64,000 bases of DNA from Psammoneis japonica (GCA_008632985.1 QPGO01000031.1:124001-188000), one strand, 5' to 3'; shown: positions 11,851-56,600, counted from the stretch's first letter. Numbers and translations are program-made. The notes: generated by a model not told the origin, from the letters alone.

Positions 11851-11851
11851 T

Positions 11852-22735: not shown

Positions 22736-22813
22736 TGTGGACCAAGAAGAATCGTAATGATTGCAAGCAAAAGTTGATTCGTATTTCGTTTTATGAGAAG
22801 CAAAAAGCCAGTC

Positions 22814-28900: not shown

Positions 28901-29149
28901 GAGGCCTCATTGCTGGTTCCAGAGGTGCTCCTGCTGCTCTTGCTGCCACTGCTGTTGCATCCACTGGGGTCAAAAGCTGAGCCACCAAAGAGAGAGTTGC
29001 CATCATCCATGAACCAGCTCCTTTTGCCTTTCTCCAACAAGCAACTCCAAGTCCAGCTCCAACTCATCACAGTCAGCCCAGGACAAGGAAAAGGACATTT
29101 AGAACAGGGTTGGACTTTGCTGTCTCCACCCCCCCCCCCCCCCCACCCA

Positions 29150-31310
29150 ACAACCAGGCATCCTCTGGATGTTTCTTTTGATGCCAATGGTTGCAAGTTT
29201 GACAAGCGGGGCAGAGACATCAACGACTGTCAAGCAGCTGCCAAAATTCAAGCCAACATTGTTGGGATCTCTGAAGTGTGCTTGAACACCGCTCATTTTG
29301 ATGTTCTCTCAGTGTGTCAATCTGCTGTGTCAAATTTGCTGCTCCATGGTCATGGGACCCATTCTAGCAGCTCTGCCACCTTTGCTGCTCAGCACAAACC
29401 AGGAGGTGCAGCCATCATCTCGTGCAATTCTGTGTCCACCCAGTGCCATTTTCAGGAATTGGACCCACTTGGACGGTGGTCTGTTCAAGCCTTTGGTGGC
29501 CACAATGGACAGCAAGCAGTGTTTGTTTCCTGCTGCAGAGTTTGCACCAAGAATCAACATCAACCAGGAAAAATTATGACGTGTGCACAACAACTTTGCT
29601 CATTGAGGCAACAAGGCCACCAGGTCGTCAATCCATGCCAGGCCTTTTGCGTGGATTTGTCTTGCATCCTCCAAGATTTTCCAGCAGGGTCCAATCAAGA
29701 GGTTGTCATGTTTGGCAACTTCAATGCTGACTTCATGGTAGATGCTGATCCTTGTCTGCCCTGGCCCAGTGATTTAATCTTTCTGATGTCCTTTTCAACA
29801 TCAGGGGTGACACCAAATTTTCCACCTGCACACGTGGATCCAAATGCCTCTGCCATGTCCTTGCATCTCCAGGTGTCTCACATGTGCTGCTCATTTCGGA
29901 GGCTGTGAAGCTTTTGGTTGTTACATTGCTTCTGACCATCATGCCTGTTTTGTGGATCTCAACACTGTTGCCTTGATTGGGGACCCAGCTGTTGATCTTC
30001 CCAAATCCTGTTTTTGTGATGTCCAGGCATCATCTGAACCCCAAGTGACCACACACCTGCAGACTGTGGGCCCAATGATGCTTGAGAGTTGTTCTGTTCA
30101 GGAATGGTTTGCAAAGTCATTGGAACTTGATGCTCCCAATCATGCCTTGGCTAGATGGTTGGACCATGACATCCTGCAGTTCTCCCTGGTGCAGCTGCCA
30201 AGAAGTGTCATGTTCACCACAAACCAGATTGGTTGGTTGAACTTGCAGATCTGCCACACTGTGCACATGTGCTCACTTGAGTTGTTTCCATGATGCACAC
30301 TCAGCTGGACCATGTTGCTCAAATTAGAAGCATTTGAGAAAACCTTCACAGTTCTGTTGGTGTTCCAGAGACCTTGCAACAGGCAGCAGTGGCCAGTGCC
30401 ATCCATTGTAGATGGGAGATCTCTCAAAAGATTGCAGCACTCAACCCCAAAGGCACTGAGGCTTCTTGTAAGAAGGCTTCCATTTTGCTGAACATTTGGA
30501 AAGCAGAGGAACTGACCAAGCTTTTCAAGAAGATTGACCCATGCAATGCTCAGTGTGATGCCAGCATCAACAGTGTTCAGGTCCCTTGAAACCCTGGAAT
30601 TCACCCCAAGGAATGTCAAGACTGAGTCACTGTTGATGCTCCAAAAGATGCAGCTGCTGCACTCTGTCAGTGCAACCAGAAACCTTTTGGCCAAGCAAAA
30701 GGGATGCCTCCCACTGTGCTTCCTTTGTCTGTTGATTTGGGATGTGAAGGCAACACGATTGTGCCAGACCTCTTTCTTGATGGGGGGAAATGGCACCTTT
30801 GCCTTGAATGAAGCCATGCAACTTTTCATCCAACACCTGAAAAGGTGGTCCTCCATCTCTGCATCAACTTTGCTCTCTGAATCAGACTTGGAGGGAAAGA
30901 TCAAATGCTGGAAAGAGTCCACTTCCACTTCCATTGCTTGGGTCTCCACCTTGGTCACTGAAAGGTCATGTGTGCTCCTCACAGTCACTCCGACTCTGCC
31001 ACCTCCAACAGTGCCCATGCTGATGAAAGAAAAACCTTGGACAAAGTTCAACAGTTGCTTGTTTGCATCAGGCTGAATCTCTTGAATTGTGCTCTCCAAC
31101 GGGGACTCTCATTTGATTGCTGGAAAGATGTTGTGAATGTTGTGATCTTCAAAGAGCCAGGAAACAACAGGATTCACCGCCTCCGCATCATCCACATCTG
31201 CAAAGCTGATTTCCAACTTGTCTCAAGCATCAAGTGGTGTGCCCTGGTGCAAAATGTGGAGAAATGTCATTTGCACAATCCAGGTGTTTGTGGCACCCAT
31301 CCCAGTCATG
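29150..31310 (+). mobile_element. Degenerate non-LTR (LINE) retrotransposon, 5' part: APE endonuclease and start of RT
   Basis: APE motifs (D)ANG, IVGISE, KPGG, DPLGRWS, VSCCRV, FGNFNA and SDH. RT N-terminal block WKDVVNVVIFKEPGNNRIHRLRIIHICKADF. Confidence 0.8.
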
Positions 31311-31768
31311 AATCAAGTGCCAAGTCTGATTCATGGATGATGCTTCTGTTCATCAATCTCTGCTTCTGGAAGAACCGTTGAGTCTTCCAGTGACAGCAAT
31401 TGGAGTGACTCACATGACCGCCAGGTCAAAATGTCATTTCCAGTCAACCTTGACATCTTCTCACAATTCGCATCTTCAGCACAACTTGTTGTCCTTTGCT
31501 GTGATTGTCATCCTCTGCACTGCATTGCACAACCTCAAGAGAGGTGTCCTCCTTCATCATCTGTGTGGTTGGTTGTGTCTTGAGTGGTTGCAACCCCAGT
31601 GACACACTGGCGTCAACCTGCAACAGCATTGCTGCCACCCAATTGTCCCCTTCGATGTGACATCTCATCCTGCAGTGATCTCCTCCATGTCGCACTCTTT
31701 TGGCAATCTTTTGTGTCACAATCCCACCCTTTCAATTGATCTTCTGCATTGAATTCCCATCCAGAACC

Positions 31769-34700
31769 ATGTCTGGCGCTGATCCCACTGCTCCCAGAAT
31801 GGATCCAGAAGCATTCAAGAAGTTTGCTGAGGCTTTTGCAGCCATGCAAGCATCCAACGCATCTCCACCCATCCCAACACCTGTCTGTGGTGGATTGCAT
31901 CCCTCTTGCGGTGTGCATGCCTTGGCGGGTCTTCTTTGGATGACACCTGCAAACCAAAAAATGCTCACACCTGCCACTTTGCATCTCAGCATCATCATCC
32001 AAATGCCATTGAGTCCATCAAGCAATCTCTCCATGAACAACTTGCTTTGGCAACTGTTTTGAACTTCAACGGTCAAATCAAGCCATCCCATGGTCCAAGT
32101 GCCAAGTTGGATGAGGAAGACTTTGTCAAGACCATCTCTGCCAAGACCTTGTAAAGTTGCGTGGGCAGGAAACCTTCTGCCATTTCAAGAAATCTGATGG
32201 CAAGGTTGTGTGTGCCCATTCAACTGTCTCCATGCCATTTCTGTCAGTGACCTTGAGATGGAGTGCAAGTCCCGCAACGCTGCTTCTGGTGATGAAGGAT
32301 GTGATGATTGTGAGAAGGACAACATTGCTCTCTCTCAACTCCTGGTCAAGTCTCGCACCACGGAAACATTCCACAAGAAGATTGAAGTGAAGTTCAATCA
32401 CATCCAGGACTTCAAGGATCTTCTGGGGTCAGCATTGTTCATGATGGCCCTGGACACTTGCAACGCAAGTGCCCTTGTAGATGTCAAGCCTGCTGAGAAA
32501 AAGCTCAAGGTGCCATTGCTTGAGTCCCACCCTGGCAAGGATTGCACTGAGCTTGCAACCAAAGCTCTGCATCTGGTCAATGTCACAGGCTCTGCTGTTT
32601 TATCCAAGGTGTCCAAGACATCATCTGAGTTCTTCAACCATCAAGCATTTGTGAAAATGGACAACATCAAGAAGACAGAATGCAAGCACTGTCTCCATGA
32701 CCTGCCCGAAGTGCCGCACAACCTCAACTGCATGACCTCAGGCCCTGTTGGCCTTGTTGGCTGGATTGCCAAAACTCATGGTGAGCTTGTCAGTGATGAA
32801 GACTGGCCTGCCTTGGCTGCCAAACTCCCTGAGTCAAACAACGTGTCCACCAAGGACATGCAATGTTGTGGACGTGATGCATTTGGACACACCAAGTGCA
32901 CCTGCAGACATGGACAAGCCACCCAAGAAGAAGAAACCTGCCTGGCATTTTGTCAACAAAGGCCCCACCCTCACAGATGACAAAGGCACCCTCTGGAAAT
33001 GGTGCAACAAGTGCATCAACAAGGAAATGGGCAAGACAGGGATGCGCCAAAGCCACTCAAGTGAAGAACTTGTCAGCAAGCATTCTTCCACCTCTGACAC
33101 TGCTGCTTCGGCAAATCTGTCCACTGTGACTGACCTTTCTTTGGGTGCCCCATTTGGTCCCCCCAAGCAGACAACAGCTCCACCAACAGACAAGCCCTCA
33201 GATCCCAATGAACTTGTCTGTTGTGGTGTGTGGTGCACTTCTGTCAATGATTCTCTGAGTGGCCCTCCTGTGACCACTTCAGCATCTTTCACTCCTGCTG
33301 CTCTGATGGCTGAGAGGGAGACCACTGTGGCCAAACCTGCTCAAGTCTTGGTCAAGACAGTTGACCCTGAAGAAGCTGATGACTTCTGCAAGTGCTCCAA
33401 TGCTTTCTCCTTGATTGCCTTGGAACCACCAGCTGTTGAGCTGTTTCCAGCCTGTGCTTTGAATGAGATCAAGAATCCGGATGTGTTTGCCTCCATGATG
33501 CCATCTCAAGTCATGTGGAAGAAGGGCTGTCAGATGGCATGTCAGATGATCTTGTTTGCAAAGCAAGCAACCCATCTTTTGAAGATGCACATGAAACTTG
33601 CCTCCAAGCTTCCATTGTTGTGGGTTTGACTTCTGTGATCCAGAAACCCAAGACACTGTTGATTGTCAAGTCAAGGAAATGACCTTGAGCTCCCACCTTG
33701 AGCTCCTTTGGAACTTTTTCAAGCTTCAAATTTTCTGGCTGTTTGCCATGCTCTGGGAAATGGTGCCACACATGTGCTTTGCTCCTGTTCCCATCCCACC
33801 TTGTTGCATCCACGCAAGCAACTCATCCCAACCATTGACAGTTTCCCACCCACTTGGGTGGTGTTGACCAAGGCGATCATGGTCTGGGCATCTGTCTTCA
33901 ATGGGCAGGTGCCCACACATCCTTTCTCCAACGTCCCTGCTTGCTTTGCTTGTGCCAGCTTGCAGGTCTGTTTGATTGTTGAAGAGCCAGATGACAAGAT
34001 TGTGTTGGATGCGGGCAGTTTGGTTGAATGCAACAAAGTCAAGGCACATCAAGTGCTTGCCGAGTTTTGTGGCACGTGATCCAAAGCACTGCTTGAGCAA
34101 GTTTGCACAGCTCTGGGAGGACAAACGCTGTCCATCTGAGGGCTCTTGCATCCCTCCTGCTCTTGAAGACCCCAAATCCTTCTTTGACACCTGTGAAACA
34201 AAAGAAGCCCTTGGTCCATCATCAACTGAGCCAAGCTGCCACTTTGACACCATCGAAGGGCTGTCACCAGACTGTTTTCATTTCAATGACTTGTCCACCA
34301 AGAATGGCTTTGTTGATGCCACTGCTTGGCAAGACCCTGTCAATCTGCTCCAAGAGGCTGTAGATGGAACTGCAGCTCATCCTGCTCATGCCTCCATGCA
34401 GGTGTTGACTGGGAAAATCCCTTTGGAGTGACTTGACACTGACTCGAACTTGTTGTCAAAACAATGGCGCATCACATCCCTGAGGCTGGGCAACATCTCC
34501 TGTTGCCCCAGCACCCATTCAGCAAGAAGCATGGCATCTCAGGAAAGCATGAGGGAGATGAAGATTCATTTAAATTGCACATTGACGGTGCTGGCTCCAT
34601 TGAGGTTCCATGCACAGCAAATCACTTTGCCCGTTGCAATTGCCTCCAACAGCACTGCTCCAGCTCCTCAAGTCAACCTTGCCACACTGAATGAGGACAA

Positions 34701-36960
34701 TCAGAACCCAGCTGCTGGCCAGAAGTTGCTTTTGGAGTGGCACTCCAGGCATGGACACTTGAACCTGGCATGCATTTAAGGGCTGCTCCGCGCTGAGCCA
34801 TTTCTACAATCAAAATTCAAGCATGCATGAAAATGTGACCACCCACAGTGCAAAGCATGCAAACATGCAAAAGGGAATCAACGTTCCCTTGGTTCTGCCA
34901 AACACACCATGGTCCCAGATAAAAATGGAGCTCTGAAAGCCAATCATCTCCATCCAGGACAGGCCATCAGCGTGGATCATTTTGAGTCCCGCATCTTTGT
35001 TGGCCACGCCTCAGGGCACCTCCACATTGAACATCAACTTGATTTTTCTGCTGTGGAAATGATTTGAGCAAAGCAAGCATTTTGAGAAACATGCAATGGA
35101 CCATGGTGTGATTGCACAAGAGTTTCTTGCTGATTTGGGCGTGTTCAAGGCTGACTCTTTTGTGCAACACACATGACAACATGAGCAACGCATCCACTTC
35201 TGTGATGCAAAGCACAGCAGAATGTGGCATGCAGTTGGTCTCCAATGTGGCAAGAGCAGTGCTCCTCCATGGATTTGTTCATTGGGGGGGGGGGGGGGCA
35301 TTGACAGCTCCTCACAGCCTGTGGCTGCATCTCATGCCTCACACATGTGCAACATGACTCCCAATGCTCAATGCCATTGCCCTGCAGACATTTTCACTTG
35401 TTCAATGGATCCCCAACATTGTCTTTGCACCATCCACATCTGGGGGTGTCCAGTTTGTGCCCTTGAGCCCACACTTCAACAAAGCATGAAACTCCCCCAT
35501 TGGCAACCATGTTCCCATCGTGGCCTCTTTGTTGGTTTGAGCAATGATGTTTGCTCCAGCAAGGTGCCTCTTGTCCTCAATCTTCAGACTGGCAGCGTTG
35601 CTTCCAACCTCATGTCATTTTTGACAATCTCTTCACCACTGCACCATTGCTTGAGAGGGAGGGCAACCTGCCAAGTCACTGGGAAGAGTTGTGTCTGGAT
35701 CAATCCACCCAGATGCCCCCCTGAGAAAGGCCAAAATGTCTGTTCAATTGATGATTGGCTTGCTCTGGACAAACTGCAACATAAAAAGAGGGAGCCAGCT
35801 TGAGCTGCTTGCATCCAAACCACCTTCAAACTGCCCGCCAGTGTCACAACCGCCACCTGCTGTTGCTTCTCCCAAATCCACTCCTCTGACAATGCCGATG
35901 ATGCCAAAACCTCCTCCTGCCACTCTTCCAGAGGGAGCTTCTTTGCTGCGCCATTCAAGTCAATCAAACAAAGGAAAGATGCAGTCCAAAAGGGTTGTGG
36001 ATGAAGTCTTCTTTGCTCTGGTCGACCCAAAAGACAAGCCACATGGGACTGCAGCACAGTTGGTGCATCTGGCAACCCTGGACACCTGCATTGATTTGCA
36101 GACCTGGAATGTTGATGATCCCAGGGTGTGTGCAGCAACCAAGAAACAAAAGGACCCCAACATGCCATCCCAGCATGAAGCTGTGCACAGTCACCAGGCC
36201 AACAAATGGGTCAAGGCTGCAAAAATTGAGGTCAATGGGCTGCTCCACCGTCCTGCATGGGATGTGGCACCAAGGACCAATGACATGAATGCACCTCCAG
36301 GCATGTGGGCCTTCAAGCTTAAGAGACTCCCTGATGGTGCACCCTTGAAGTGCAAAGCCTGGCATTGTGTTCATGGCAATTTGCAGAAACAAAGTGTTGA
36401 TTTTTTTTTAGACCTGTGTGCCGGTCATGCAGTGGTTGTCAACTTGACTTCTCCTCACAATGGCACTCAAAGAAGGTTGGACCACTTGTCAATTTAACTG
36501 TGCTGCCGCCTTTTGCCAAGCCAAGATCAAGGAGAAAGTCCATGTTGAGCCTCCCAAATGTTTTCAGCCAAAATCAGGTGCCAACTTGGCACTGAAATCA
36601 TTGAAAGACCCACATGGACTCCACCAGTCTCCCAGCTGCTTCCATGAAAAGCTTTTCAGTGGATTGATTGAAAGAGGATGGATCCAGTCCACTGTTGACC
36701 CTTGTCTTCATTTTATGAAGGGGCATGCCATGTGTGGTGCATGTTGATGACACTGTGTTTGCCGGTGCCTCAGCAGAAGAACTTGAAGCCAAGATCGCCA
36801 AATTGGGCATCTCTGACAATGAGCAACATCATGTCTTTGACCTGTGCGACAAAGGCAAAGTCAGCAACTTTTCAGGTGTCAAGATCAACCAGGCCCAATT
36901 GAGAAAGTGCTGCACACCACCAAGATGGAAAACTGCAAAATGGAGCTCCTGCTCCTGCAC
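31769..36960 (+). mobile_element. Degenerate, internally deleted Ty1/copia element nested in the LINE
   Basis: gag-like start MSGADP. Integrase remnants LEWHSRHGH, PGQAISVDHFES and HIWGCPVCALEPTLQ..KLPHWQP.S.RGLFVG. RT remnant WAFKLKRLPDGAPLKCKA..CV.G.LQ, QSTVDPC and VVHVDD. Confidence 0.85.
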
Positions 36961-36989
36961 TCCCTGCACCCATTGGCAGCAATTCTGAA

Positions 36990-38650
36990 GGCCCACCATC
37001 CCCAGTTGAGATCATCACTGATGATGATGGAAAGTGGCAGTTTCTTCCTCATTGCTCAATGCCAACCTTGGAAACTCCTCCTCATCTCCCAGATTGCTTC
37101 CATGACTGACTGCAATCCTTGCCTCTTTGGGAGTCTGCATTGTTCTCTGACATTGCACTTCACATGTCCATTCATGAGTTGGTGGATTGCTTCGTTTCTG
37201 CCTGCCTGACAGCAGGCAGTGATGGGCCCATGCTTCTTCAGAGTGCCGCACTCGGCTGGACTGTCACCATGAATGGCAGACCATTGGTGGATTGTGCTGG
37301 ACCAGTTTTTGGATGATGCCTTCTTCCCACTGTGCAGAGGCCTGTGGATTTCTTTCCCTCATGAGATTTGTTTTTCGTTTCCTGGAATTCTGCACACTGT
37401 CATCACATGAAGGAGTTGACAACTGGTGCAACAACAAGGCTCTCGTTAGAGTTCTTTCCCATTTGTCAGACTGCCATGTCATTCCATTGACCTTTTGGTT
37501 CAAGCCCATTCCAAGAAGGATTTTAATTTGTGGCAGCATGGAGCCAATGTTTTGTCATCTGACTGGGACATCATCAATGAAATCTGCCAGACCTTCATGA
37601 CCATTGAATCCATCCTGCAGCCTTCTTCACCTGGACAGGCCCATGCCACAGAATGGGTGAAAGGACACCAGGACAGGCACACTTCAGTCAAGTCTCTTCC
37701 TTTAAATGCTGAGATCAGCGCATGTGCCGACAACCTGGCAGGACAATTTCAAGGCCTGTGTGAATCAGACGCAACCCAGGTTGTCCCCCTTTTCCTCATT
37801 GCCAGTCCCACCCATGCCTTCAAGATGGAGAGCCATCACTGCTGGACTCAAGTCTGCTGTTCTCTGTGCCACTGTGGCCTCTGCTCCACTGGATTGCATC
37901 AGGGAATGCAACGGATGGGACGATTCAATTGCCGACAAGACAGGCTGGCCCATTCACACCACTCTGGTGTGAAGTTTCTCAAAGACACACGTTTCCACTG
38001 TCAAGTTGATCCACGAGCTTCTTCCCATGAACAAGGTCACTCATCGGCACAACCCCGTGAGACCCCATCATTGTCTGCAATGCAAACATCCCATGGAGGA
38101 TCAGGGTCATGTCTTGTGATGCCCTGACAACAATGAAGCCTGGCATTGCAGATTTCTGCAAGGCCTCTGCAAGCACTGTGACATCATCGACTCGATGCCC
38201 CCTTTGCATGACCTGCTTTTGTCTGCAATGGAAGCTTGGTTTCAAGGTGCGATGACATGTGACATCAACATTGCCCCAATGCTTTGCCCCCTGTGAAGAG
38301 CCCAGTCAGACACAGGATGGCGTCAAGTGTTCAATGGTCATTTTTCTGCTCTGTGGAGCACTTTTCAAGAAACGCATTTTCACAAAACAGGGCTTCTGGA
38401 AAAGCATCGAAAGGAAAATTGCTCTCCTCCAGTGTGGGCAGTTCAAATGGACACCCATGTGCAAAGGGTCAAGTGGGTTTCATTTGCCACTTTTTCAGCT
38501 TGAATTTGGCCAAACAGCTTGTGACTTGTGTGTTTTTTCCTGAATTTCACCATGGCTCACCGTGGTGAAAACATCAAACCACACCAAGTCTGTGACAGAG
38601 GTGGTCCATCTTCCAACTCTCATCCACTTTGTGTTCATCGTGCATCAAAG
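36990..38650 (+). mobile_element. Degenerate LINE, 3' part (RNase H and zinc knuckle)
   Basis: GSDG..., SSHCAEACGFLS, WCNNKALV, SDWDIINEI, WVKGHQD and ADNLA are RNase H motifs typical of diatom LINE ORF2. Same strand as the 29.1-31.3 kb part. Confidence 0.75.
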
Positions 38651-38762
38651 GTCACATGCACACCAAAAAATGTTTGAGGACCGACCACTGCGTTTTGGAA
38701 TGTCAAGATTGCCATCATCGTCGTGCTTCGATCTCGGTGCCTGATGTTCTCGTTTTCGCGCG

Positions 38763-38981
38763 CGAGTGAAATCCGATGCATCAGAGACTGTCTGGTGCGC
38801 TCTACAAGTTGAAGTGGTGGGACTGTGACGTGGCATCGGTGGGAAAATGACAATGACCATCGATCAGTCTCACTTGTTGCATCTGTTGTAGTTGCAACAG
38901 GCCCAGAAGCATCTCATTGGTTGTGTTCGCGCTGTCGTGCTAAGACTGTGAGTGGCTGAGCCTGTTCGGCAGCTAGATTTA
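38763..38981 (+). repeat. 5' LTR
   Basis: 219-bp ungapped match to 45222..45440. Confidence 0.9.
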
Positions 38982-39274
38982 CTCGCTTCATCAGAGCCAA
39001 GTCGTCAACTCAGGTTTGGTTTGACAAAAAGCATTGAACAACTGTGAAGAGACGATCGCACCAATGTGGCAGGGTTATGACGACGAACGCCGGTCGATCG
39101 AAGGGTGTGTGATAATTGTCGTCGCCTGGCATCAGTGAGTGCACAAGCAGTGAGGAGACATGGCCAGTCTCCATGCTTCCAATGGCTGTGTGTTGTGTCA
39201 ACACAGACCGAGACATCCTTTTTAATTTATGATTTCTCACATGACTCTGTTTTCCTGCTGGCACAGGTGCCACC

Positions 39275-40701
39275 ATGGCGGCTGCTCCTCCGGATCCTAT
39301 CGAGACAGCACTCGACTGGATCGGATTTGTTGATCCAGCTCAACGAGTCTCGCTCATGGCGGACTTTGCGTCTTTTGACGATTTGGAAGACCTCAAGGAA
39401 GAGGACATCGATTCTCTCGCGTCATCGTGCGCTGGGAGGACGGTTGCTGAAGGGCGCATTCATTTTGGTTTGGCCCGCAGTCGTCGACTCAAAGCTTTCA
39501 TCCATTGGGTGCAGGACTTTGGTCATGTGAGTGAGAATCCTGCTCTGGATGGGCTTGACCAGGCAACTTTCCGTGCTGCTCTCCAGACGGCACTCAGTCG
39601 TGCCGAGATCCGTTCCCAGACCAAGACCACTGCTGACTCTCTTGGTAAAGAGGCGTCACCCGGGATGTTAGAGAGTGAAAAGGATTGGGTTGAGTGGAGC
39701 ACCGGCTTGACGAATGTGCTTGGCATTGTGCCAGGAGTCTCTGGCATGCCGTCAGTGCATTGCATGCATCAAAACGATGCACCCGAACCCCAAGGCCACA
39801 ACACTTTTGTCCAGAAGTGCACTGCATGTGCACCCCTCCAAGGCCCAGCTTTCGAGGCTGACACTCGTGCGGTTCATTTGCTCATCGAGTCCCTTGCCAC
39901 GGGCACACCCAGTGAGCAATGGTTGAAAGACCACAAGAATGAGCAGAACGGACGAGTTGACTTCAGGGCGTTGTGTGACCATTGCCAGGGAGAAGGAAAT
40001 GCCTCCCGCCACATCTCTGAAGCCGAGCGCATGGAGAACACCCTCCATTGCAAGAGTGAGCGCGCCATGCTGTTTGAATCGTTTGTCAACAAGCTCCAAG
40101 AAATGTTTGACATTTTTGAGGAGAACGACGAACCGAAAACGGAGGCCCAGAAATTACGGATCCTTTTGAGAAGACGCAGCACCAATCACTGCAAGCAGCA
40201 GTTGAGACCTTGAAGGCACAGAATGAGTTTGGAGGAGGCATCACGTTCACCATGGCAGCCAATCATCTTGCTGCCAAAGTCGCCACCCTTCCAGAGACGA
40301 TTGCGCGTCGTCGTGCGATTGCCGCAGTCGCCTCTGGAGGAGGAAAAGAGGGTGGTGCCATCTATGATGAGGATGGATCCATTGACACTGGATGCCACAA
40401 AAATTGGCACCAGTTGAGTGAGGAGGACAAACAGAAGGTTGTCGACGAGCGCGTGCGTCTGGGTGTTGCCAAACAACCCAAATCAACCAAATGCCGTGCT
40501 GCATCCGTAAAGTTGCTCAAGAAGAAGAATCGGAAGCTGTCGTCGCAGCTTAAAGAAGCGAACCGCAAAATCTCCGCCCTGAACACCAATGCCAGCGCCG
40601 ATTCTGGCGATGATGAATCAAGGGCTGGCGGCAAAGACGGAGACAATGCCGGAGACGCATTCGGTGGTCGCAGCGAAAAGCACAGAGGAAAGAACAAATG
40701 A
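39275..40701 (+). pseudogene. gag: copia gag (1-bp frameshift near 40170)
   Basis: ORFs 39275..40213 and 40210..40701 join through a T-run frameshift (ILFEKTQHQSLQAAVETLKAQ). Motifs LKAFIHWVQD and QNGRVDFRALCDH. Confidence 0.8.
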
Positions 40702-43700
40702 CTGCCAAGCTGGACCCTGCTTTGTTGCATCATAAACTTCTTGTTGTGGTTGCCACATTGGGGTGGGGGACAGCCGCATCAATCAAAGGAGCAGCATTCA
40801 CGTGGCTGCAACAAACGCGTCTGTGAGGTCGTTGCCTCGACACGGCGTGTCTCGGCAACGCGGTCTGACACCACATGAATCACTCACATCCATGACATGA
40901 GAAAGGCACAACATGGACGCCTTGAAATGGATTCGCATGCTGACACCACTGTTTTTGGTCAAAACTTTACTCTCTTGGGTTGTTCTGGACGAGAATGTGA
41001 CGCATCGCCTTTTAACGAGGGATGCGATTCCATCAAGAGTGTCCCAATTGTCTCGGCAGCCACGGCGTGGACGTCACCGACATCGGGAGCAACTTTTATT
41101 CTGGTCTTCCACGAGGGCTTGTGGATGCCGGAGTCCATGGAGCACTCGCTGGTTGCCCCAAACCAGCTGCGGCACTTTGGTGTTGAGGTTCAGGACAACC
41201 CCTGCTCCGATTCACCACTGTGTGTCCTTGCAGAGGACAGATCTTTCATGATGCCGCTTGAAGCTGTGGGGACCAATGTCATTGCGGCGACTCGCACTCC
41301 TGCAGAACAGGAGTTGCACGAATGCCCCAAGATCCAGATGACCTCCCAACAACCTTGGGATCCACAGACCGTCAAGTTCAAATCTGTTGGAACTCGACGA
41401 TCTGCGGAGGAGGAAATGGAGCTAGTTCGGTCAATTGCGACGATCCACACCAATCTGACACACGAGTTCAAAGCCGATCCTGCCTGCAGCAACCCTCAAT
41501 CCGGGGACTGTTGCGATGAGCGATTCATTTGTGGAGTCGATCAAGTCCAATCAAGGCTCACAGCTGCCGTTAATGTGGAATCGGAGCCAACAGTCCAGAT
41601 CTCTGCCACGGAAACAATCGGCGAAGGACCTGAAGACTTGGCACTCCCGAAGACATTCATGTCCAAGGAGAGACACAGTGATGCATCGGCTGCTGACTCA
41701 AGTGAATGATGGTGCACAGGACTCAAGCAAGCAGCAAACATGCTCAAGAAGACCACACAAAAGCTCATCAGGTCAGCATTGATGCCAATGGGTCAACGCT
41801 GCCGGGCCGATCGGATGTTCACGAAGCCCAGGTTACGGGGTGAATGGGCAACCGACACGGTTGATGGCAAGGTGGTTTCGTTGGAGGGCAATCGACACGC
41901 CCAGATCTTTACAAACAAGCAATGTTTCGCTGCGATTTATCCCATGGACAAGAAGAGCAAGGCTGGCGAGGCTCTCAAGATGTTTTGCCAGGAATTTGGC
42001 ATGCCAGAGAAACTCCTGATGGATGGATCTAAGGAGCAAATGAAACCTGGCACGGAGTTCATGAAGACCGTGCGCAAGGAGGGCACAGATTGTCATGTCA
42101 TCGAACCCGATCGACACAACCAGAATCCTGCAGAAGGGGTTGTGCGCGAGGTTGGACGCAAGTGGTTCCGCATCATGGTCAAGAAGCAAGCACCGTGGCG
42201 ACTGTGGGACTGCAGATTCATGTGGACATGTGAGACCATGTCTCACACATTCCTTAGAGCCCATCATTTGGATGCTGGAGTGCCACCAGAGAACATTCTC
42301 GGAGAGACCGTGGACATCTTGGAGCACCTTGACTTTGGATTTTATGATTGGGTCTGGTGCAGGGAGAATGCCGGTCTGGGGGATGAGAAGCTCGGCAGGT
42401 GGCTTGGTGTGTCTCACAGAACAGGGAGTCTCATGTCGTGTTACGTTTTGACACAGACAGGCAGTGTCATTTCGAGAACTTCTGTTCAACGAGTCACCAA
42501 TTTAGAAGCCGCTGCTCAAGAGAAAAAGGCAAAGTTTGACAGTTTTGACGAGGAGATCAAGCGCCGGTTGAAGGAGCAAGACTTTCCCGACAACGAGGAT
42601 CGCAAGATCAGCCCCGAAGACTGGAAAGACCACCTTGGATGCGACGATGAATTCCTCAATGAGTGTGATTGTGTCATGTCCTCAGAGGAGGCAACAAATG
42701 ACGATGACGACAAGAAAGACGAGGAAGCCTCACCGGAGGTGGCGGACTGGGGACACCTTAACATGGAAGATGCGCTTCCAAGAGATGACAACAGTCCTGA
42801 GTTTGCTCGTGTCACGAAGAGGTTGAGAGACGCCAGTGGCATTCCGACAGGAACAGCCAATGACAATCCCATCCTTGATGCAAGGATGTATGAGGTAGAG
42901 TGCCCTGATGGGCACCATGCTGCGCTCTCTGCTAACTCCATCGCCATGAATGTGTTTGCTGAGATCGACGAGGACGGAAACCGGCATGTCTCATTTGACG
43001 AGATCGTTGATTGCCGCACCAACGGGGACGTTCCTGAATCCGAGTTCTTTGAGACCGAGCAAGGTGTTCGGAAGAGGCGCAAGACTGCCAAAGGATGGGA
43101 ACTCCTGTTCCAATGGAAGGACGGAAGTGCGACTTGGATCGACTTGAAGATTGCGAAGGAGAGCTTCCCAGTCCAAGTTGCCGAGTTTGCCATTCAGCGC
43201 AAGATCTTGAAAGAGGCAGCGTTTGCTTGGTGGGTTCCTCATGTCATGAAAACCTGCAAGCGTTCCATTGCGAAGGTCAAGTCGAAGTGTTGGCTACGAA
43301 CACACAAGTTTGGCACACGGATCCCAAAGAGTGTCCAGGAGGCAATCCAGATCGATCGCGCAAATGGCAACACCCTGTGGTGGGACGCCATTTGCATGGA
43401 GATGAAGAGTGTGCGGGTTGCTTTTGACAAGTGTGAAGGGGAGCTTAAGGACATGGCGCCTGGTTTCCAGGAAGTGAAGTGCCACATGATTTTTGATGTC
43501 AAATTGGGAGAAAACTTCCGCCGTAAAGCTCACATGGTGGCTGGAGGCCACACTGCTGAAACCCCTGCACACATCACTCATTCCTCTGTCGTCTCTCGGG
43601 ATTTGGTGAGGATCGCACTGACGCTTGCTGCGCTCAATGACTTGCAAGTCTTTGCATGTGACATCCAGAATGCCTGCCTCACTGCCCCTTGCAGGGAGAA

Positions 43701-45035
43701 GATTTGGGCCAGGGCAGGTTCCGAGTTTGGCGAGGATGAAGGTTGCATCATGATTGTGGTCAGGGCTCTGCACGGATTGAAGAGCTCCGGAGCAGCATTC
43801 AGGGCATTCCCAGCGGAGACGCTTTGTGATCCAGGGCACAAACCGAGCAAGGCTGATCCGGATGTGTGGATGCGACCTGCGGTGAAACCCGATGGATTCG
43901 AGTGCTGCGAATGCGTTCTAGTTTATGTGGACGATGTGCCATCGATTGGTCACGAACCCATGAAGACGATGGACGGCATCAGGTCCAAGTTCAAGCTCAA
44001 GGGTGATGAGGCAGCCGAACCAGATTCTCATCTCGGTGCCACGCTTTCCAAGATGACTTTAGCCGATGGGACCACCTGTTGGGCAATGTCTGCGGAGAAG
44101 TGCTGCAAGTCCGCTGTCCAAAATGTAGAGGACAGGCTTGGCAAGGAGGGGAAACGTCTGCCCAGCAAGGCGACAACCCCATTGAGCAGTGGATGCAAAC
44201 CCGAGCTAGACACCACTGGTGAGCTGGACGCTGAAGGACTTCACCACTGTCAAGAGCTGATTGGTGCACTGGTTTGGGCTGTGGAACTCGGTGGAGTGGA
44301 CATCCATTTGGAGGTTTCGTCAATGTCTGCTCACCTCGCTCTTCCTCGCGTTGGTCATCTGGAACAGGTGTTGCATGTCTTTGCACACCTTGAACAGGTT
44401 CCAAAGCGCCAAGTGGCATTTGATCCGGCTCATCCCAAGATCGATGAATCGCGATTCGTGAAGTGCGACTGGCACGACTTCTGCCGAGATGCAAGAGAAG
44501 CCATCCCGACAAATGCCGAGATGCAAGAGAAGCCATCCCGACAAATGCGCCGCCAGCCCAAGGTGATGTGGCATCGACACATTGTTTTGTGGATGCCAGC
44601 CATGCCAGAAATGTTGCCGATCGTCGCAGCCACACAGGTGTCTTGATGTTTGTCAATCGGGCACCCATCGTGTGGCACTCGAAGCGTCAGAACACCGTGG
44701 AGGCTGGCACATTTGGGGCTGAGATCGTTGCACTCAAGAATGCCATCGAGCTCATGGAGGGTCTGCGATGTGAGCTTTGAATGTTTGGGGCACCGGTCGA
44801 AGGGCCAACAAATGTCTTCTGTGACAATGAGGCCATCTACAAGAATTGCTCCATTCCTGAGTCTACACTCAAGAAGAAGCATCACTCCATTGCGTGTCAC
44901 CGCAACCGCGAAGCTGTTGCTGCAGGGACTGTTGGGATTGCAAAGGAGGGAACAGAGACAAACCTCAGCGATCTGTTCACAAAGGTCATGTCGTCCATCA
45001 GATGGAATTTTCTGCTAGACAAGTTCGCGCACTGA
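40702..45035 (+). pseudogene. pol: copia pol (PR-IN-RT-RH) with probable CGA>TGA stops and a 32-bp duplication frameshift
   Basis: Same frame as the gag end, with in-frame TGAs at 40876, 41707 and 44778. The tandem 32-mer TGCCGAGATGCAAGAGAAGCCATCCCGACAAA at 44482-44545 shifts the frame before RNase H. Confidence 0.9.
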
Positions 45036-45221
45036 GACGGATGCGTGGAGCGGTGGTGAGTTTCTTCCCCAGTGAGGGTTTGCACCATGCACAGAGGATT
45101 GGCGACTTTTCCCTGGCAAGGGTTTTTACGTCGATCGATAAGTCAAGATTGTTTGAGTTGGACCACTGACACAGCATTGGATCGAATTGTGCCTTACGAG
45201 TCAGGTGCATTTCGAGGGGAC

Positions 45222-45440
45222 CGAGTGAAATCCGATGTGTCAGAGACTGTCCAGTGCGCTCTGTGAGTTGAAGTGGCGGGACTGTGACGTGGCATCGGTG
45301 GGAAAATGACAATGACCATCGATCGGTCTCACTTGTTGCATCTGTTGTAGTTGTAACAGGCCTAGAAGCATCTTATTGGTTGTATTCGCGCTATCGTACT
45401 AAGACTGTGAGTGGCTGAGCCTGTTCGGCAGCTAGATTTA
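45222..45440 (+). repeat. 3' LTR
   Basis: Match to 38763..38981, preceded by a polypurine tract. Confidence 0.9.
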
Positions 45441-53639: not shown

Positions 53640-56600
53640 CATTCGCCGTGTTCGCCGATGGCAAAACACAAAATGACCGACCAACCATCTGCCGTCAGAT
53701 TGAGCAAGCTAAACACCCTCATTGTTGATCTCGCATGGTGCAGTGGCACACATGATGATGTAGAACACTGCGCTGCAAAGATGATGAATGGAAAAGTGCA
53801 GAAAAACTCGAGAGAGAGAGAGAGTGCCGTGCTGCTCTGCAGCCTCAGAGCCAGAGTTGGCCAGAGCCTCTGGCAGCGTGAATGCTCCATTTCAATGCTC
53901 AGACTTGGCAGTCAAATTGTCAATTCATTTGATGAAAGAAAAGTGAACAATGTGCTGGTCAAATGTGCAGCATCAAAAAACTGAGCCACAGCCTCCTCTT
54001 TCTTCTGCGCCACCTCTCGACGACCACCCCCCTTTGAAAAAAACACAGGAGAGCAGCAAAAGAGCCTCAGCAAGTGCACAAGAGCTGAGAGTTTGCACAT
54101 TCTTCCACTCCTCCATCACACACTGGATGAGATTGGCACTGATGATCATTGTCAGCAATCTTTTCTGGGCTGGGCACAGCTGCTGTCTCTCTGCACAGAG
54201 AAGTGGCGCGCTCCTCAGGAGAGATGAGTCCAAAATGAGATGGGCAGCCAGAGTTGATGCACAGAAGCTCAGTCTTGTGGCTGTTCAGAAAAGTGTTGTC
54301 ACTCATTTTCCCATCTGTCTGCACATGTGCATTCTGGCTTCAGAGGGGGAGCCAACTGAAATGCCACCCCACCAGCAGGGTGGCATTTTTCAGCTGCCTC
54401 CCCAAAGAGCAGTTGCTGGCTCTGCTGGCGCACAGCAGCCACTCTCTGTCACATGACATTGTGCACATTTGCACATGACTTGCTTGACAGTTTTCTCTCA
54501 GCAAAAAATTTTGGTTGGTGTCATGAAGTTTTTGAAAAAGATCCCTGCTGTTTTAGTGTCATCACACAGGCATGCAAACTCAGCTCTTGCAGATGCTTGC
54601 ATTTGCAAGGAGGTGCAAGAAACAACAAAAAAGCCCCCCCCTCAAGAAATGATGAAGCACCACGCAAATGGCACCACAAGGCTGCAAGGTGGCAATGCTG
54701 TGCCAAAGGAAATTTGCTCTCATGTTTGGAGGCATGAACCTTCACACCAAGCACTGGCTTGCACCCCTGCCCCCAGCCAAATTTGCACCCTGTTCCACCA
54801 CATTGCAGCAAGTTGCTCCATGCACCACTGAGTTGGCTGCTGTGTCTTGACATCACAGAAAAAAGCAGCCATTGGCATTCAAGCAAGGGAAAGAGTGGAG
54901 TCCAGAAAAACTGCAACTGCTCTTCTCCAACCCACCTCCACTTGAGCTCCCAGATCTGGCCCAGCCCTGAATGCCTGAGCTGCTGGTTCATTTGGAGATC
55001 ATGGCTTCATCAGAAGAGCAAGCCATTTGTCTCATCTTTTGCCCACTTGCCACCTGCCTGTGTCCCAACAATTATCCCAGATCAGTGCAAAAAAAGAAAA
55101 GATGCTTTTGCTGGCCCACACTGCCCCAAGTGGAGCCTTGGGAGAGCTCAAACATTTCTGGCTTGCCCGCAGCCTCTGAAGAAGAAGCAAATGTTGTGGC
55201 ACAACTTCTTTGACCCCCCCCTCTCTTGGTGCTCACTGAAAAAGAGCATTGGGTGCCTTTTGAGCCAACCTTTCTGCTGTGCAGCAAGCAAAGTTTTTTC
55301 ACATCACACAATCAATGTGGTGCACAAGATGGCAGCCGTGGCTGTGTTGCCCTTCTTTGCACCACACATCTCAGCAATCTTTTGAGAGTGCTCTCTTGCA
55401 AAGCTCCTGCATTGGGTCAAACACACACACAGCAGCAAAATGGCCAAAAACAAACACACAAAAGGAACCTTGGCATTGAAACCCAAACCTGAGTGCTGTG
55501 GTTTGTTCAACAAAACCTCTTTGTTGAGCACAAAAAAGAGAAAAGAGCACAGCCACCCAAAAAATCCAGCACAAGCAAACTGCTGTGTCTTTGCCAATGA
55601 CTGCTTGGTCACAAGACCAGCTGGAAGATGCAATGCACTTGGGTGTTGTGAGGAGCTTCAATGATGTTAGAGCAAAAGCAAAAGATTGACCTTCTTTTAA
55701 ACAGAAATCATTGAAGCCCATGCAGACACAGGAAGCATTGAAATGGGCAGCGTCAGTGGAGTTTTGCAAGGAAGAGGGATCAAGCCAGGGAGGTTTGGGC
55801 TGAGAAGAGAAGGTGGGTGAGGAAGTGCCAAAGAGGAGTCAATGGGAGAAGCAGCCAAGACCACCAAGGTGGTCAATGGCAAACGGGAGGAGGAAGATCC
55901 CCCAGTGGCGTTGAGGGATTAAATGGTGAGGAGGGGGACCCACAGGCAGAAGAGGAGGTGGAAGGACCCAAAAACTTGGATCTCATGCTTGTGTGGTGTG
56001 CCTTGGTNNNNNNNNNNNNNNNNNNNNNNNNNNNNNNNNNNNNNNNNNNNNNNNGGAGGAGCTGCTTTGGGAATGGTGACATCGATGGCGCGATGTGTCG
56101 ATGCTGGTTGGAGGGGGCGGAGAGGTGAAAGCGGGGGGGGGGGGGTGGAGATGCCAACATTGGCTGGTCACAGGAGGGGATGATGGGAGAGAAGATTTGC
56201 AGGTTGGAGATGAACATTGTTGGAGGAGTGGCAAAGCTTGGAGAGAAGGTCAAGGGTGTGAGTGAGAACGAAGACAGTGTCTCGGATGCCATTTGAAAGT
56301 TTGGATGTGTGGGGGGCCTTGCATGCAAAAAGGCATGATCGCCAAAGGCATCCAGAGCAGCACGGCCACAAGGGCAAGGAGAGTTAATGAGAGAGAGAGA
56401 GAGAGAGGAAGAACCAGAAGGCGAAAGGTGAAGCTGGCATTGGATGGCCACAGCACTCTCGTCAGAACAAGCAAGGTGTGAGAGGCAGCACGGCATCGAG
56501 CGAGGCTGGTGAGGGGAGACAAAAGGGAGGGAAGAGCTGTCTGAATTTCAGGGGGGAGTCAGATGGCAAGGGCCTCTGAAATGATCCACTGCTGGTGGGC
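53640..56600. other. Hypermutated block C
   Basis: TpA nearly absent from about 53640 to 56580, CpG depleted in the core. Confidence 0.85.

What the first reader, a model, noticed from the sequence alone, without database searches (positions are those of the whole stretch)
38763..45440. Internal control 2: every LTR-LTR mismatch is a TA or CG -> TG/CA change
By hand the 219-bp LTRs differ at 15 positions, with no indels or transversions. Six TAs kept in the outer 3' LTR (45351-45400: TGTAAC, CCTAG, CTTATT, TGTATT, GCTATC, CGTAC) read CA, CA, CA, TG, TG, TG in the 5' LTR. Two differences are CG->TG/CA. The rest are reciprocal CA-vs-TG sites (GATGCA/GATGTG, TCTGG/TCCAG, TACAAG/TGTGAG), where each LTR resolved the same ancestral TA or CG differently. 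LTRs are identical at insertion, so this happened in genomic DNA after integration, on both strands, with no background divergence. That makes it fast and rules out RNA editing or RT error. LTR-divergence dating in this genome would be inflated.
Basis: seen in the sequence. Interest (0 to 1): 0.88.

Follow-up and report, generated by a model that had tools for sequence, protein, structure and literature searches.

The report
TpA-erasing hypermutation of diatom transposons
The two end-repeats of a jumping gene in a diatom genome differ only by one odd kind of change (TA or CG turned into TG or CA), the footprint of a fast DNA-level mutation process that erases these two-letter words from silenced transposon islands and has so far been reported only in one unrelated alga.

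Summary
The LTRs (38763-38981, 45222-45440) differ at 15 of 219 positions. All 15 are transitions inside pyrimidine-purine (YR) steps, with no indels or transversions (p about 1e-4 to 6e-7).

- At 27 columns where 60 relatives keep Tyr, this copia-like element has Tyr 4, His 8, Cys 11.
- A host-gene fragment beside the island shows 16:0 TA loss and 21:3 CG loss against its paralog.
- A piggyBac-like DNA-transposon relic shows the same changes.

The window holds about 35 kb of sharp-edged islands. There TA o/e is 0.00-0.1 and CG o/e 0.0-0.2, while YR-step density is unchanged (238-240 per kb). This is the opposite of fungal RIP.

TA loss outpaces CG loss. It nearly wipes out RTAY (1 left of 92 expected) and partly spares YTAR (18 of 43).

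The host is a pennate diatom by named homologs. The only match in print is a 2026 preprint on Bigelowiella natans. My searches found nothing for diatoms.

The mechanism is inferred: adenine deamination at TpA plus 5mC decay at CpG in silenced chromatin.

Caveats: the family has about 22-45 copies, so a chimeric assembly is possible; the target-site duplication is unclear.

The parts
38763..38981 (+). 5' LTR (219 bp), the more mutated copy: TA 5, CG 10, TG 29, CA 15
45222..45440 (+). 3' LTR (219 bp) at the fading edge of the depleted island: TA 10, CG 12, TG 27, CA 10. It keeps six TAs at 45354-45398.
39245..40213 (+). Gag-like ORF of the element (322 aa, 0 Tyr, no Pfam match)
40879..41706 (+). 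N-terminal polyprotein piece. It matches profile positions 45-295 of an HMM built from 25 relatives and has 0 Tyr.
41707..41709 (+). In-frame TGA stop that splits the polyprotein. It is consistent with a CG>TG change, but the ancestral codon was not determined.
41710..44646 (+). Pol ORF (978 aa, Pfam RVT_2). Tyr is 0.5% against about 3.5% in relatives; 19 of 27 conserved Tyr columns are now His or Cys.
44448..45032 (+). C-terminal polyprotein pieces (profile positions 1215-1388) in another frame, with an in-frame TGA at 44778-44780
45214..45220 (+). Purine run GAGGGGA next to the 3' LTR start (polypurine-tract-like)
   Evidence: seen in sequence
23400..24144 (.). Spill-over zone: a host FPGS-gene 5' fragment (paralog of 49926-50688) abutting the island. 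It has lost TA (16:0) and CG (21:3) relative to its paralog.
24145..38762 (.). Old saturated island (TA o/e 0.00-0.09, CG o/e 0.03-0.23), single copy in run X1
27697..28548 (-). piggyBac-like transposase relic (DDE_Tnp_1_7) inside the old island. At 8 conserved Tyr columns it reads C4, H3, W1, Y0.
24534..24800 (+). Old repeat copy 1 (partner 26107-26374): 76% identical in nucleotides, 95% in R/Y space; 52 transitions, 8 transversions; 13 dinucleotides read TG in one copy and CA in the other.
26107..26374 (+). Old repeat copy 2
10800..19200 (.). Another saturated TA/CG-free island (approximate edges)
53700..56600 (.). Another saturated island (approximate edges; holds an N gap at 56008-56054)
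60100..64000 (.). Another saturated island, running off the window end
20889..22813 (.). Control: a gene paralog in ordinary DNA (partner 47496-49363) with an ordinary, symmetric spectrum (130 transitions, 68 transversions)

Best explanation
SHOWN. The 15 LTR mismatches are footprints of a region-targeted mutation process that acts on genomic DNA in a pennate diatom. Inside silenced transposon islands it converts TpA to TpG or CpA on either strand. This part is fast and strongly favours RTAY over YTAR. More slowly, CpG is converted to TpG or CpA. The process is limited to transitions at self-complementary YR steps. YR-step density and G+C therefore stay constant, while TA, CG, Tyr codons and TAA/TAG stops disappear. 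Its edges behave like chromatin-domain edges, not repeat edges. On one side it runs about 750 bp into flanking host DNA. On the other it fades about 300-450 bp inside the element. That is why the interior 5' LTR lost six TAs that the edge 3' LTR still keeps.

INFERRED.
- The TpA part is most likely enzymatic deamination of adenine to inosine, which is read as G, in a 5'-TA context on double-stranded or transiently opened DNA.
- The enzyme would be a TadA/ADAT-like or other nucleic-acid deaminase recruited to methylated or heterochromatic DNA.
- The CpG part is ordinary deamination of 5-methylcytosine, which marks diatom transposons.
- The biological effect is irreversible inactivation of mobile DNA.
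For: LTR pair: 15 of 15 differences are YR-step transitions; R/Y identity is 219/219.

Polarity:
- Pol: at 27 columns where at least 80% of 60 relatives have Tyr, the window copy reads Y4, H8, C11, F3, S1. The relatives keep on average 29.3 of 30.9.
- Pol: of 55 conserved-column differences explainable by one transition, 36 are TA>CA/TG, 9 are CG>TG/CA and 10 are other. A further 55 differences are not one transition.
- piggyBac-like relic: 8 conserved-Tyr columns read C4, H3, W1, Y0; 12 TA-type, 12 CG-type, 2 other single transitions and 23 not one transition.

DNA level and domain-like spread:
- The host-gene fragment 23409-24144, against its paralog, has 16 TA>CA/TG sites and 0 in reverse, and 21 CG>CA/TG sites against 3 (p = 3e-5 and 3e-4).
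- The control paralogs are symmetric, 15 against 10 and 21 against 17.

Both strands: 31 TA>TG against 28 TA>CA polarised sites, with no strand-coordinated runs.

Composition:
- TA o/e is 0.00-0.1 and CG o/e 0.0-0.2 in the islands.
- YR steps: 239.6 per kb in normal DNA, 238.3 in old islands, 239.7 in the element.

Not a family trait: the 80 metagenome relatives have median TA rho 0.675 (minimum 0.41), against 0.16 here. None of 753 one-kb windows falls below 0.3.

Context: against 52 relatives, RTAY keeps 1 of 92.3 expected and YTAR keeps 18 of 43.2. The ranking is the same in the old islands.

Real in reads: run X1 contigs cover the old island at single-copy depth with 15 listed differences. 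Of these, 14 are transitions and 11 lie in YR steps.

Precedent: de novo TpA>TpG/CpA hypermutation was seen in mutation-accumulation lines of Bigelowiella natans, where an ADAT2-like deaminase was proposed (bioRxiv 10.64898/2026.01.13.699255; abstract, Results and Discussion read).

Diatom transposons are CpG-methylated by DNMT5a (PMC9998398, passages only).
Against: - No enzyme, modified base, methylation or chromatin data exist for this organism, and no genome is held. The mechanism is inference only.
- Polarity at the 15 LTR sites themselves has no outgroup.
- The family has about 22-45 copies and the target-site duplication is ambiguous (GCGCG against GCACG, offset by 1 nt). The two LTRs may not stem from one insertion, or the copy may be an assembly chimera.
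- The oriented flank preference (-2, +1) of the edited A is not significant in the 59 polarised sites (chi-square p = 0.13). A TadA-like TAY preference is therefore not established.
- The sequence cannot tell whether A or T is the base first altered.
- ACGT is the most depleted CpG context in the young element (8 of 22.6 expected). This hints that the CpG part may not be wholly independent.
- X1 may come from the same sample as the assembly, so it is weak independent support.
Confidence: 0.6

Rival explanations
1. Thymine, not adenine, is the base attacked. A TET/JBP-type dioxygenase oxidises T at TpA in silenced DNA to 5-hydroxymethyl- or 5-formyluracil, which mispairs with G and gives T>C. 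This would parallel 5mC at CpG as a second C5-pyrimidine mark on a palindromic YR step.
For: The signature is strand-symmetric on a palindrome, so T>C and A>G cannot be told apart. It co-localises with CpG decay, which is itself driven by a pyrimidine C5 mark. That oxidised thymines mispair, and that some protists place hmU at TpA, is recalled knowledge and was not checked here.
Against: No evidence for such bases in diatoms was found or searched for. The only experimental precedent (the B. natans preprint) argues for A deamination, though without proof.
Confidence: 0.15
2. One dual-specificity deaminase does both jobs: A>I at TpA and C>U at CpG, as reported for some ADAT2 enzymes acting on DNA. 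5mC would then not be needed for the CpG part.
For: TA and CG loss share exactly the same island edges. In the young element the alternating context ACGT is the most depleted CpG class, echoing RTAY. The preprint cites ADAT2 enzymes that edit both A and C in DNA.
Against: Rates differ strongly: the element keeps 18% of its TA but 84% of its CG. GCGC, also an RCGY context, is not depleted (23 against 19.8 expected). A metagenome relative shows CpG decay without TpA loss (L076: CG rho 0.21, TA rho 0.87), so the two processes can occur apart. In the old islands, GC-flanked CpGs survive best (GCGC 0.37, against 0.08-0.19 for the other nine contexts); that this is typical of spontaneous 5mC deamination is recalled.
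Confidence: 0.12
3. Opposite polarity, a RIP-like process: C>T at CpA/TpG created the six TAs in the 3' LTR.
For: For the LTR pair alone this is equally parsimonious.
Against: The islands are nearly TA-free. TpA/ApT is 0.05 and (CpA+TpG)/(ApC+GpT) is 2.08, the reverse of RIP indices. Conserved Tyr is replaced by His or Cys. The flank asymmetry is 16:0 in the TA-loss direction. G+C is unchanged.
Confidence: 0.02
4. Pre-integration editing (ADAR-like on the RNA, or RT error) produced the changes. The two LTRs differ only because the assembled copy is a chimera or recombinant of different family members.
For: The family is multi-copy and the target-site duplication is unclear. Chimerism cannot be excluded for this pair.
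Against: The same changes occur in flanking host DNA and in a DNA-transposon relic. TA>TG and TA>CA are balanced on the sense strand, 20 against 16 in pol. The single-copy old islands are saturated.
Confidence: 0.03
5. Sequencing or assembly artefact.
For: None specific. The window does have N gaps.
Against: Contigs of run X1 reproduce the old island at about 99.7% identity and at single-copy depth. The island edges are sharp and coincide with biological features. The protein-level consequences are coherent.
Confidence: 0.02

Closest known systems
TpA>TpG/CpA hypermutation of integrated giant-virus and virophage DNA in Bigelowiella natans (Mettrop et al., bioRxiv 10.64898/2026.01.13.699255, 2026)
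   Same: Changes are exclusively A:T>G:C transitions at TpA on either strand. The process is local and targets foreign DNA. Its long-term trace is TpA depletion with CpA+TpG enrichment in clusters. Reverse-transcriptase and DDE domains are enriched among TpA-poor genes.
   Different: The host is a diatom (Stramenopila), not a chlorarachniophyte (Rhizaria). The targets seen here are an LTR retrotransposon, a piggyBac-like relic and unidentifiable islands. Depletion is near-saturated (rho 0.0-0.1, against 0.45 for their NCLDV region). It is coupled to CpG decay, has an RTAY>>YTAR context and spills into host DNA. The preprint's main text does not mention CpG, LTR, flanking or trinucleotide/tetranucleotide (0 occurrences each); its supplements were not seen. 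Here nothing was observed de novo; everything is inferred from sequence.
Repeat-induced point mutation (RIP) of fungi
   Same: It is a DNA-level, dinucleotide-specific, transition-only inactivation of mobile or repeated DNA on both strands, with leakage into neighbouring DNA.
   Different: The direction is opposite. RIP turns CpA/TpG into TpA and makes DNA AT-rich. Here TpA is destroyed and G+C is unchanged. The two LTRs, repeats of each other, are hit unequally, and an 86%-identical segmental duplication is untouced away from the island. Repeat homology therefore does not look like the trigger.
CpG decay by deamination of 5-methylcytosine in methylated transposons (known in diatoms: DNMT5a-dependent TE methylation, PMC9998398)
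   Same: CG>TG/CA in transposons, slower than the TpA change, with GC-flanked sites surviving longest.
   Different: It explains only the CpG half. Methylation of these islands was not measured.
ADAR or APOBEC hyperediting of retroelements before integration
   Same: Clustered transitions inactivate retroelements. The U/T 5' of the edited A resembles the ADAR neighbour preference cited in the preprint.
   Different: Those processes act on RNA or minus-strand cDNA. They are strand-specific, leave both LTRs identical and cannot touch flanking host DNA or DNA transposons.

Membership tests
TpA-targeted hypermutation of foreign DNA (B. natans type) | Mutations are A:T>G:C transitions restricted to TpA (TpA>TpG or CpA) | tested here: met
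   Polarity and context come from conserved columns (36 of 55 single-transition differences), the flank (16:0), the piggyBac relic and composition. A CpG>TpG/CpA component is present in addition.
TpA-targeted hypermutation of foreign DNA (B. natans type) | Confined to discrete regions of foreign or mobile DNA, with a normal spectrum elsewhere | tested here: met
   The islands are sharp-edged. The control paralogs in ordinary DNA are symmetric. A copia-like element and a piggyBac relic lie inside the islands.
TpA-targeted hypermutation of foreign DNA (B. natans type) | Observed de novo at about 1e-7 to 1e-6 per site per generation, episodically | not testable with these tools
   Needs mutation-accumulation lines. 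Indirect evidence only: no background change in LTRs that differ by 6.8%.
TpA-targeted hypermutation of foreign DNA (B. natans type) | Responsible enzyme (an ADAT2-like deaminase is proposed, unproven) | not testable with these tools
   No genome is held for this window.
Fungal RIP | C:G>T:A transitions that raise TpA/ApT (>0.89) and lower (CpA+TpG)/(ApC+GpT) (<1.03); these thresholds are recalled | tested here: not met
   TpA/ApT is 0.049 and (CpA+TpG)/(ApC+GpT) is 2.08 in the old islands, and 0.133 and 1.58 in the element.
Fungal RIP | Triggered by sequence duplication, with both copies hit | tested here: not met
   The 86%-identical duplication 20889-22813 / 47496-49363 has an ordinary symmetric spectrum. 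Only the part abutting the island is hit. The two LTRs are hit unequally.
5mC-driven CpG decay | CG>TG/CA with CpG o/e far below 1 in the affected DNA | tested here: met
   CG o/e is 0.0-0.2 in the old islands. Polarity: 21:3 in the flank, and R>H/C changes in the piggyBac relic.
5mC-driven CpG decay | The region is cytosine-methylated | not testable with these tools
   There are no methylation data. Diatom TE methylation is known from PMC9998398 (passages).
Pre-integration RNA/cDNA editing (ADAR, APOBEC) | Strand-specific changes shared by both LTRs and limited to the retroelement | tested here: not met
   The LTRs differ. Both strands are hit equally. The flank and a DNA transposon are affected.
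Ty1/copia LTR retrotransposon | RVT_2-type reverse transcriptase between two LTRs | tested here: met
   Pfam RVT_2: 35.2 bits against a cut-off of 31.6. Relatives carry PF07727 and match with E down to 2.7e-204. LTRs.
Ty1/copia LTR retrotransposon | Target-site duplication flanking the LTRs | tested here: inconclusive
   The best candidate is GCGCG (38758-38762) against GCACG (45442-45446), offset by 1 nt from the LTR end. Such R/Y matches are likely by chance.
Ty1/copia LTR retrotransposon | Integrase placed before reverse transcriptase | not tested
   Pfam reported only RVT_2 on the mutated ORF. Domain order was not examined.

The most novel reading that the evidence does not exclude
Diatoms possess a dedicated, chromatin-domain-targeted DNA adenine-editing defence, a GC-neutral mirror image of fungal RIP. 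It erases TpA (preferentially RTAY) from silenced mobile DNA within very few background-mutation units. It is the same system as the one just seen in the rhizarian Bigelowiella natans, which would make it ancient in the SAR supergroup. It would also be a natural double-strand-DNA TpA-specific A-to-G editor.
Probability: 0.35. Interest if true: 0.88.

Novelty: new member of a known kind. Interest (0 to 1): 0.72.

Why it matters
- If it holds genome-wide, it places TpA-specific hypermutation of mobile DNA in a second, ecologically dominant algal lineage. So far it is known from one 2026 preprint on one species.
- It shows the end state: kilobase islands with no TA and no CG.
- It adds testable features: the RTAY preference, coupling to CpG decay, and domain-like edges that leak into host genes.
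- LTR-divergence dating and similarity-based repeat annotation would be badly biased in such genomes. Comparison in purine/pyrimidine space recovers the old repeats.
- The long ORFs in the islands are artefacts of stop-codon loss. TAA plus TAG number 26 against 363 TGA in the 14.6-kb island.
- The unknown enzyme would be of interest as a natural A-to-G DNA editor.

Tried and rejected
- Whole-genome test: not possible, no genome is held.
- Outgroup for the LTR sites: there is no third LTR copy in the window, in nucleotide or R/Y space. Read laying listed only 40 of 370 differing places, none of them in the LTRs.
- Target-site duplication: inconclusive.
- Strand-coordinated clusters (a processive single-strand deaminase): rejected. 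Runs of TG against CA outcomes are not fewer than in shuffles: pol 24 runs against 18.8, flank 11 against 8.9. The CCCGGG order in the LTR has p = 0.10.
- Oriented -2/+1 preference of the edited A: not significant (p = 0.13).
- Same-family relics in the other islands: a profile of 25 relatives hits only the focal element.
- Pfam on 89 island ORFs: one real hit (piggyBac-like) and five sub-threshold hits taken as chance. The piggyBac relic has no PDB sequence match.
- TA loss as a family trait: rejected.
- First metagenome scan, with the mutated protein alone: found nothing.
- Protein-atlas search for host taxonomy: uninformative.
- RNA: no RNA holder is listed for the stretch. X2 and X3 gave little or no cover of the element.
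- Literature: eight searches found only the B. natans preprint. Term look-ups in PMC2806351, PMC8147415 and PMC6604790 found no mention of such a signature. These papers were not read in full, and no supplements were seen.
Full report
OBSERVATION

The region holds one direct-repeat pair: 38763-38981 and 45222-45440, 219 nt, 93% identical. Similarity ends at both edges and there are no gaps. A script finds 15 differing positions, all transitions. In purine/pyrimidine (R/Y) space the copies are 219/219 identical.

Any transition inside a pyrimidine-purine (YR) step necessarily links TA or CG with TG or CA.

- 118 of 219 positions lie in YR steps, which gives p = 9.4e-5 for 15 of 15.
- Counted as 11 dinucleotide steps against 59 YR steps of 218, p = 5.7e-7.
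- Against a control paralog pair in ordinary DNA of the same window (71 such changes of 198 differences), Fisher p = 5.6e-7.

WHAT THE ELEMENT IS

Between the repeats lies a copia-like retrotransposon.

- ORF 41710-44646 matches Pfam RVT_2.
- It has thousands of relatives: 2487 with E <= 1e-3 among 8000 scored candidates. The best 120 are 58-67% identical.
- One cluster of relatives contains a Fragilaria crotonensis protein.
- A profile of 25 relatives maps polyprotein pieces at 40879-41706, 41710-44643, 44448-44777 and 44781-45032.
- The polyprotein is broken by in-frame TGA stops at 41707 and 44778 and by a frame change near 44.5 kb.
- A purine run, GAGGGGA, lies next to the 3' LTR start.
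- The target-site duplication is unclear.

HOST

No genome is held. A folylpolyglutamate-synthase exon (50981-51544) is 62% identical to a cluster that holds Fistulifera solaris. It is 58% identical to Cylindrotheca and 55% to Seminavis robusta. I take the host to be a pennate diatom. No near-identical protein was listed, so its proteome seems absent from the collection.

THE WIDER PATTERN

The window alternates between ordinary DNA (TA o/e about 0.4-1.0, CG o/e about 0.8-1.2) and sharp-edged islands where TA o/e is 0.00-0.10, CG o/e is 0.00-0.23 and TG/CA are about doubled. The islands lie at about 10.8-19.2 kb, 23.4-38.8 kb, 53.7-56.6 kb and 60.1-64 kb. The focal element, 38.8-45.2 kb, is an intermediate state with TA o/e about 0.1 and CG o/e 0.7-0.87.

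| Region | YR steps per kb | G+C |
|---|---|---|
| Ordinary DNA | 239.6 | 0.479 |
| Old islands | 238.3 | 0.483 |
| Focal element | 239.7 | 0.528 |

They fit a process made only of transitions at TA and CG. The RIP indices are inverted: TpA/ApT is 0.049 and (CpA+TpG)/(ApC+GpT) is 2.08 in the old islands.

POLARITY

(a) Pol of the focal element. I aligned it with the first 60 listed relatives longer than 1200 aa (60 of the 120 listed). There are 528 columns where at least 80% of relatives agree. The window copy differs at 110 of them, led by Y>C (11) and Y>H (8).

- At the 27 conserved-Tyr columns it reads Y4, H8, C11, F3, S1.
- The relatives, each tested against the rest, keep on average 29.3 of 30.9 Tyr, with 0.15 His and 0.07 Cys.
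- Of the 110 differences, 36 are explained by one TA>CA/TG change, 9 by CG>TG/CA and 10 by another single transition. The other 55 are not one transition.
- Tyr is 0.5% of the ORF, against a median of 3.5% in 153 relatives.

(b) Host flank. The island's left rim overlaps a fragment of a duplicated host gene: 23409-24144, paralog of 49926-50688.

- The rim copy has 16 sites where the paralog has TA and it has CA or TG, and none in reverse.
- For CG the counts are 21 against 3.
- Overall there are 72 transitions and 18 transversions (p = 3e-5 and 3e-4).
- The neighbouring paralog pair in ordinary DNA (20889-22813 / 47496-49363) is symmetric: 15 against 10 for TA, 21 against 17 for CG, with 130 transitions and 68 transversions.

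(c) DNA-transposon relic. A piggyBac-like relic lies inside the old island at 27697-28548, minus strand (DDE_Tnp_1_7, 34.7 bits against a cut-off of 22.4). I aligned it with its 7 relatives. At 8 conserved-Tyr columns it reads C4, H3, W1, Y0. Among its differences, 12 are TA-type, 12 CG-type, 2 other single transitions and 23 not one transition.

The RIP-like reverse reading is excluded for the region, although the 15 LTR sites themselves have no outgroup.

DNA LEVEL, BOTH STRANDS, DOMAIN-LIKE TARGETING

- The flank fragment was never reverse-transcribed, and the piggyBac relic has no RNA intermediate.
- Among 59 polarised TA sites, 31 went to TG and 28 to CA. In pol, on the sense strand, the split is 20 against 16.
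- Outcomes along the sequence are not clustered by strand.
- On the left, depletion starts about 750 bp outside the transposon nest, in the host fragment.
- On the right, it fades about 300-450 bp inside the element (TA positions).
- This explains why the interior 5' LTR lost six TAs that the edge 3' LTR keeps.
- Both LTRs are repeats of each other and of many other copies, yet they are hit unequally. The 86%-identical segmental duplication is untouched away from the island.

Repeat homology is therefore an unlikely trigger. A chromatin or methylation domain is the better fit. This last step is inference.

RATES AND CONTEXT

I used 52 relatives of similar G+C (284 kb) as the baseline. The element keeps 18% of the expected TA and 84% of the expected CG.

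| Context | Observed | Expected |
|---|---|---|
| ATAC/GTAT | 1 | 43.8 |
| ATAT | 0 | 25.6 |
| GTAC | 0 | 22.9 |
| TTAA | 6 | 11.3 |
| CTAG | 5 | 10.9 |
| CTAA/TTAG | 7 | 21.0 |

TA survival thus depends strongly on the flanks: RTAY is wiped out and YTAR partly spared. Mixed contexts lie between, at ratios of 0.07-0.34. The old islands give the same ranking.

Among CpG contexts, ACGT is the most depleted in the young element (8 of 22.6 expected). In the old islands GCGC survives best.

The old repeat pair 24534-24800 / 26107-26374 is 76% identical in nucleotides and 95% in R/Y space. It has 52 transitions and 8 transversions. At 13 dinucleotides one copy reads TG and the other CA. That is what independent 50:50 resolution of about 26 ancestral TA/CG sites would give.

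The LTR pair's naive Jukes-Cantor distance is 0.072. Ordinary change is 0 in 219 sites, with a 95% upper bound of about 0.014. LTR dating is therefore inflated at least five-fold.

NOT A FAMILY TRAIT; REAL IN READS

- The 80 related loci from metagenomes (260 confirmed, best 80 kept) have median TA rho 0.675 (minimum 0.41) and median CG rho 0.99. The element has 0.16 and 0.76.
- None of their 753 one-kb windows has TA rho below 0.3.
- Contigs of run X1 cover the old island at a depth of about 55-125, like the genes at 51-53 kb (56). They cover the element at 1200-2500, which implies about 22-45 copies at 90% likeness or more.
- In the old island, 15 listed differences between X1 and the window comprise 14 transitions. 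Of all 15, 11 lie in YR steps: 8 at CG and 3 at TA, in both directions.
- Only 40 of 370 differing places were shown. X1 may also come from the same sample as the assembly.

COMPARISON WITH WHAT IS KNOWN

A 2026 preprint (10.64898/2026.01.13.699255; abstract, Results and Discussion read) reports mutation-accumulation lines of the chlorarachniophyte Bigelowiella natans.

- 231 of 302 new single-nucleotide mutations fall in two integrated viral regions.
- Nearly all of these are A>G or T>C, and all of those lie at TpA.
- The rates are about 6e-7, and the mutations appear in only some lines.
- The authors also find TpA-poor, CpA+TpG-rich clusters and propose an ADAT2-like DNA adenine deaminase.
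- The main text does not mention CpG, LTR, diatom, flanking or tri-/tetranucleotide context (0 occurrences each). Its supplements were not available to me.

My eight literature searches found nothing comparable for diatoms. Term look-ups in two diatom transposon papers and in the Phaeodactylum mutation-accumulation paper found no mention. I saw passages only in those three papers.

Diatom transposons are CpG-methylated through DNMT5a, and many diatoms carry RID-related DNMT4 enzymes of unknown function (PMC9998398, passages).

MECHANISM (INFERRED)

The simplest account has two coupled processes in silenced DNA:

- Enzymatic A>I deamination in a 5'-TA context, on either strand.
- Spontaneous deamination of 5mC at CpG.

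A thymine-oxidation route (T>C) and a single dual-specificity deaminase remain open. The oriented flank preference that could favour a TadA-like enzyme is not significant in 59 sites. That tRNA adenine deaminases always see U before the target A is recalled knowledge and was not tested here.

VERDICT

The phenomenon is a striking TpA/CpG-erasing hypermutation of mobile DNA. It appears to be a new instance, in a diatom, of a kind described once, very recently, in another lineage. It also shows features not yet reported: saturation, the RTAY preference, CpG coupling and spill-over into host DNA.

The main weaknesses are:
- a single window;
- no outgroup for the LTR sites;
- a possible chimeric assembly of a multi-copy element;
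- no biochemical evidence.

Noticed in passing
window 19481-24144 and 46892-50688: A segmental duplication (83-88% identical) carries a cysteine-rich repeat gene and the 5' part of a folylpolyglutamate-synthase gene. The first copy is truncated at 24144 by the transposon island.
   Followed up: partly
window 8245-9930, 19571-22466, 46964-48520, 58687-59529: A family of cysteine-rich proteins is built from about 44-residue modules (recurring GACC... motifs). The largest ORF (796 aa) contains long internal tandem repeats.
   Followed up: no
window 38763-45221: Among CpG contexts, only ACGT is strongly depleted in the young element (8 seen, 22.6 expected from relatives). GCGC is not depleted (23 against 19.8). 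In the old islands GCGC survives best.
   Followed up: partly
window 24145-38762 and the other islands: TAA and TAG are almost gone (26 together, against 363 TGA, in 14.6 kb), so long ORFs appear in all six frames. These ORFs are artefacts of the mutation process, not genes.
   Followed up: yes
L076 and L023 (metagenome relatives): L076 has CpG rho 0.21 with normal TpA (0.87), so CpG decay occurs without TpA loss in another diatom-like element. L023 is mildly low in both (TA 0.44, CG 0.38).
   Followed up: no
window 47650-52999 (run X2): Run X2 of the same sample covers only genic parts. It covers none of the old island and almost none of the element, as a transcript-derived library would. Its kind is not on record.
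   Followed up: no
window 45688-45710: In the flank right of the element, one X1 contig reads TA, TG, TA where the window reads CA, CG, CA. This may be allelic or strain variation of the same type just outside the element.
   Followed up: no
window 1297-1450 and 2180-2332: An inverted repeat of about 150 bp (84% identical) lies in ordinary DNA upstream of the 720-aa ORF at 2646-4808.
   Followed up: no
window 38990-38998: ATCAGAGCC lies 9 nt after the 5' LTR. It resembles the initiator-tRNA primer-binding site of copia elements. The resemblance is recalled and was not tested.
   Followed up: no
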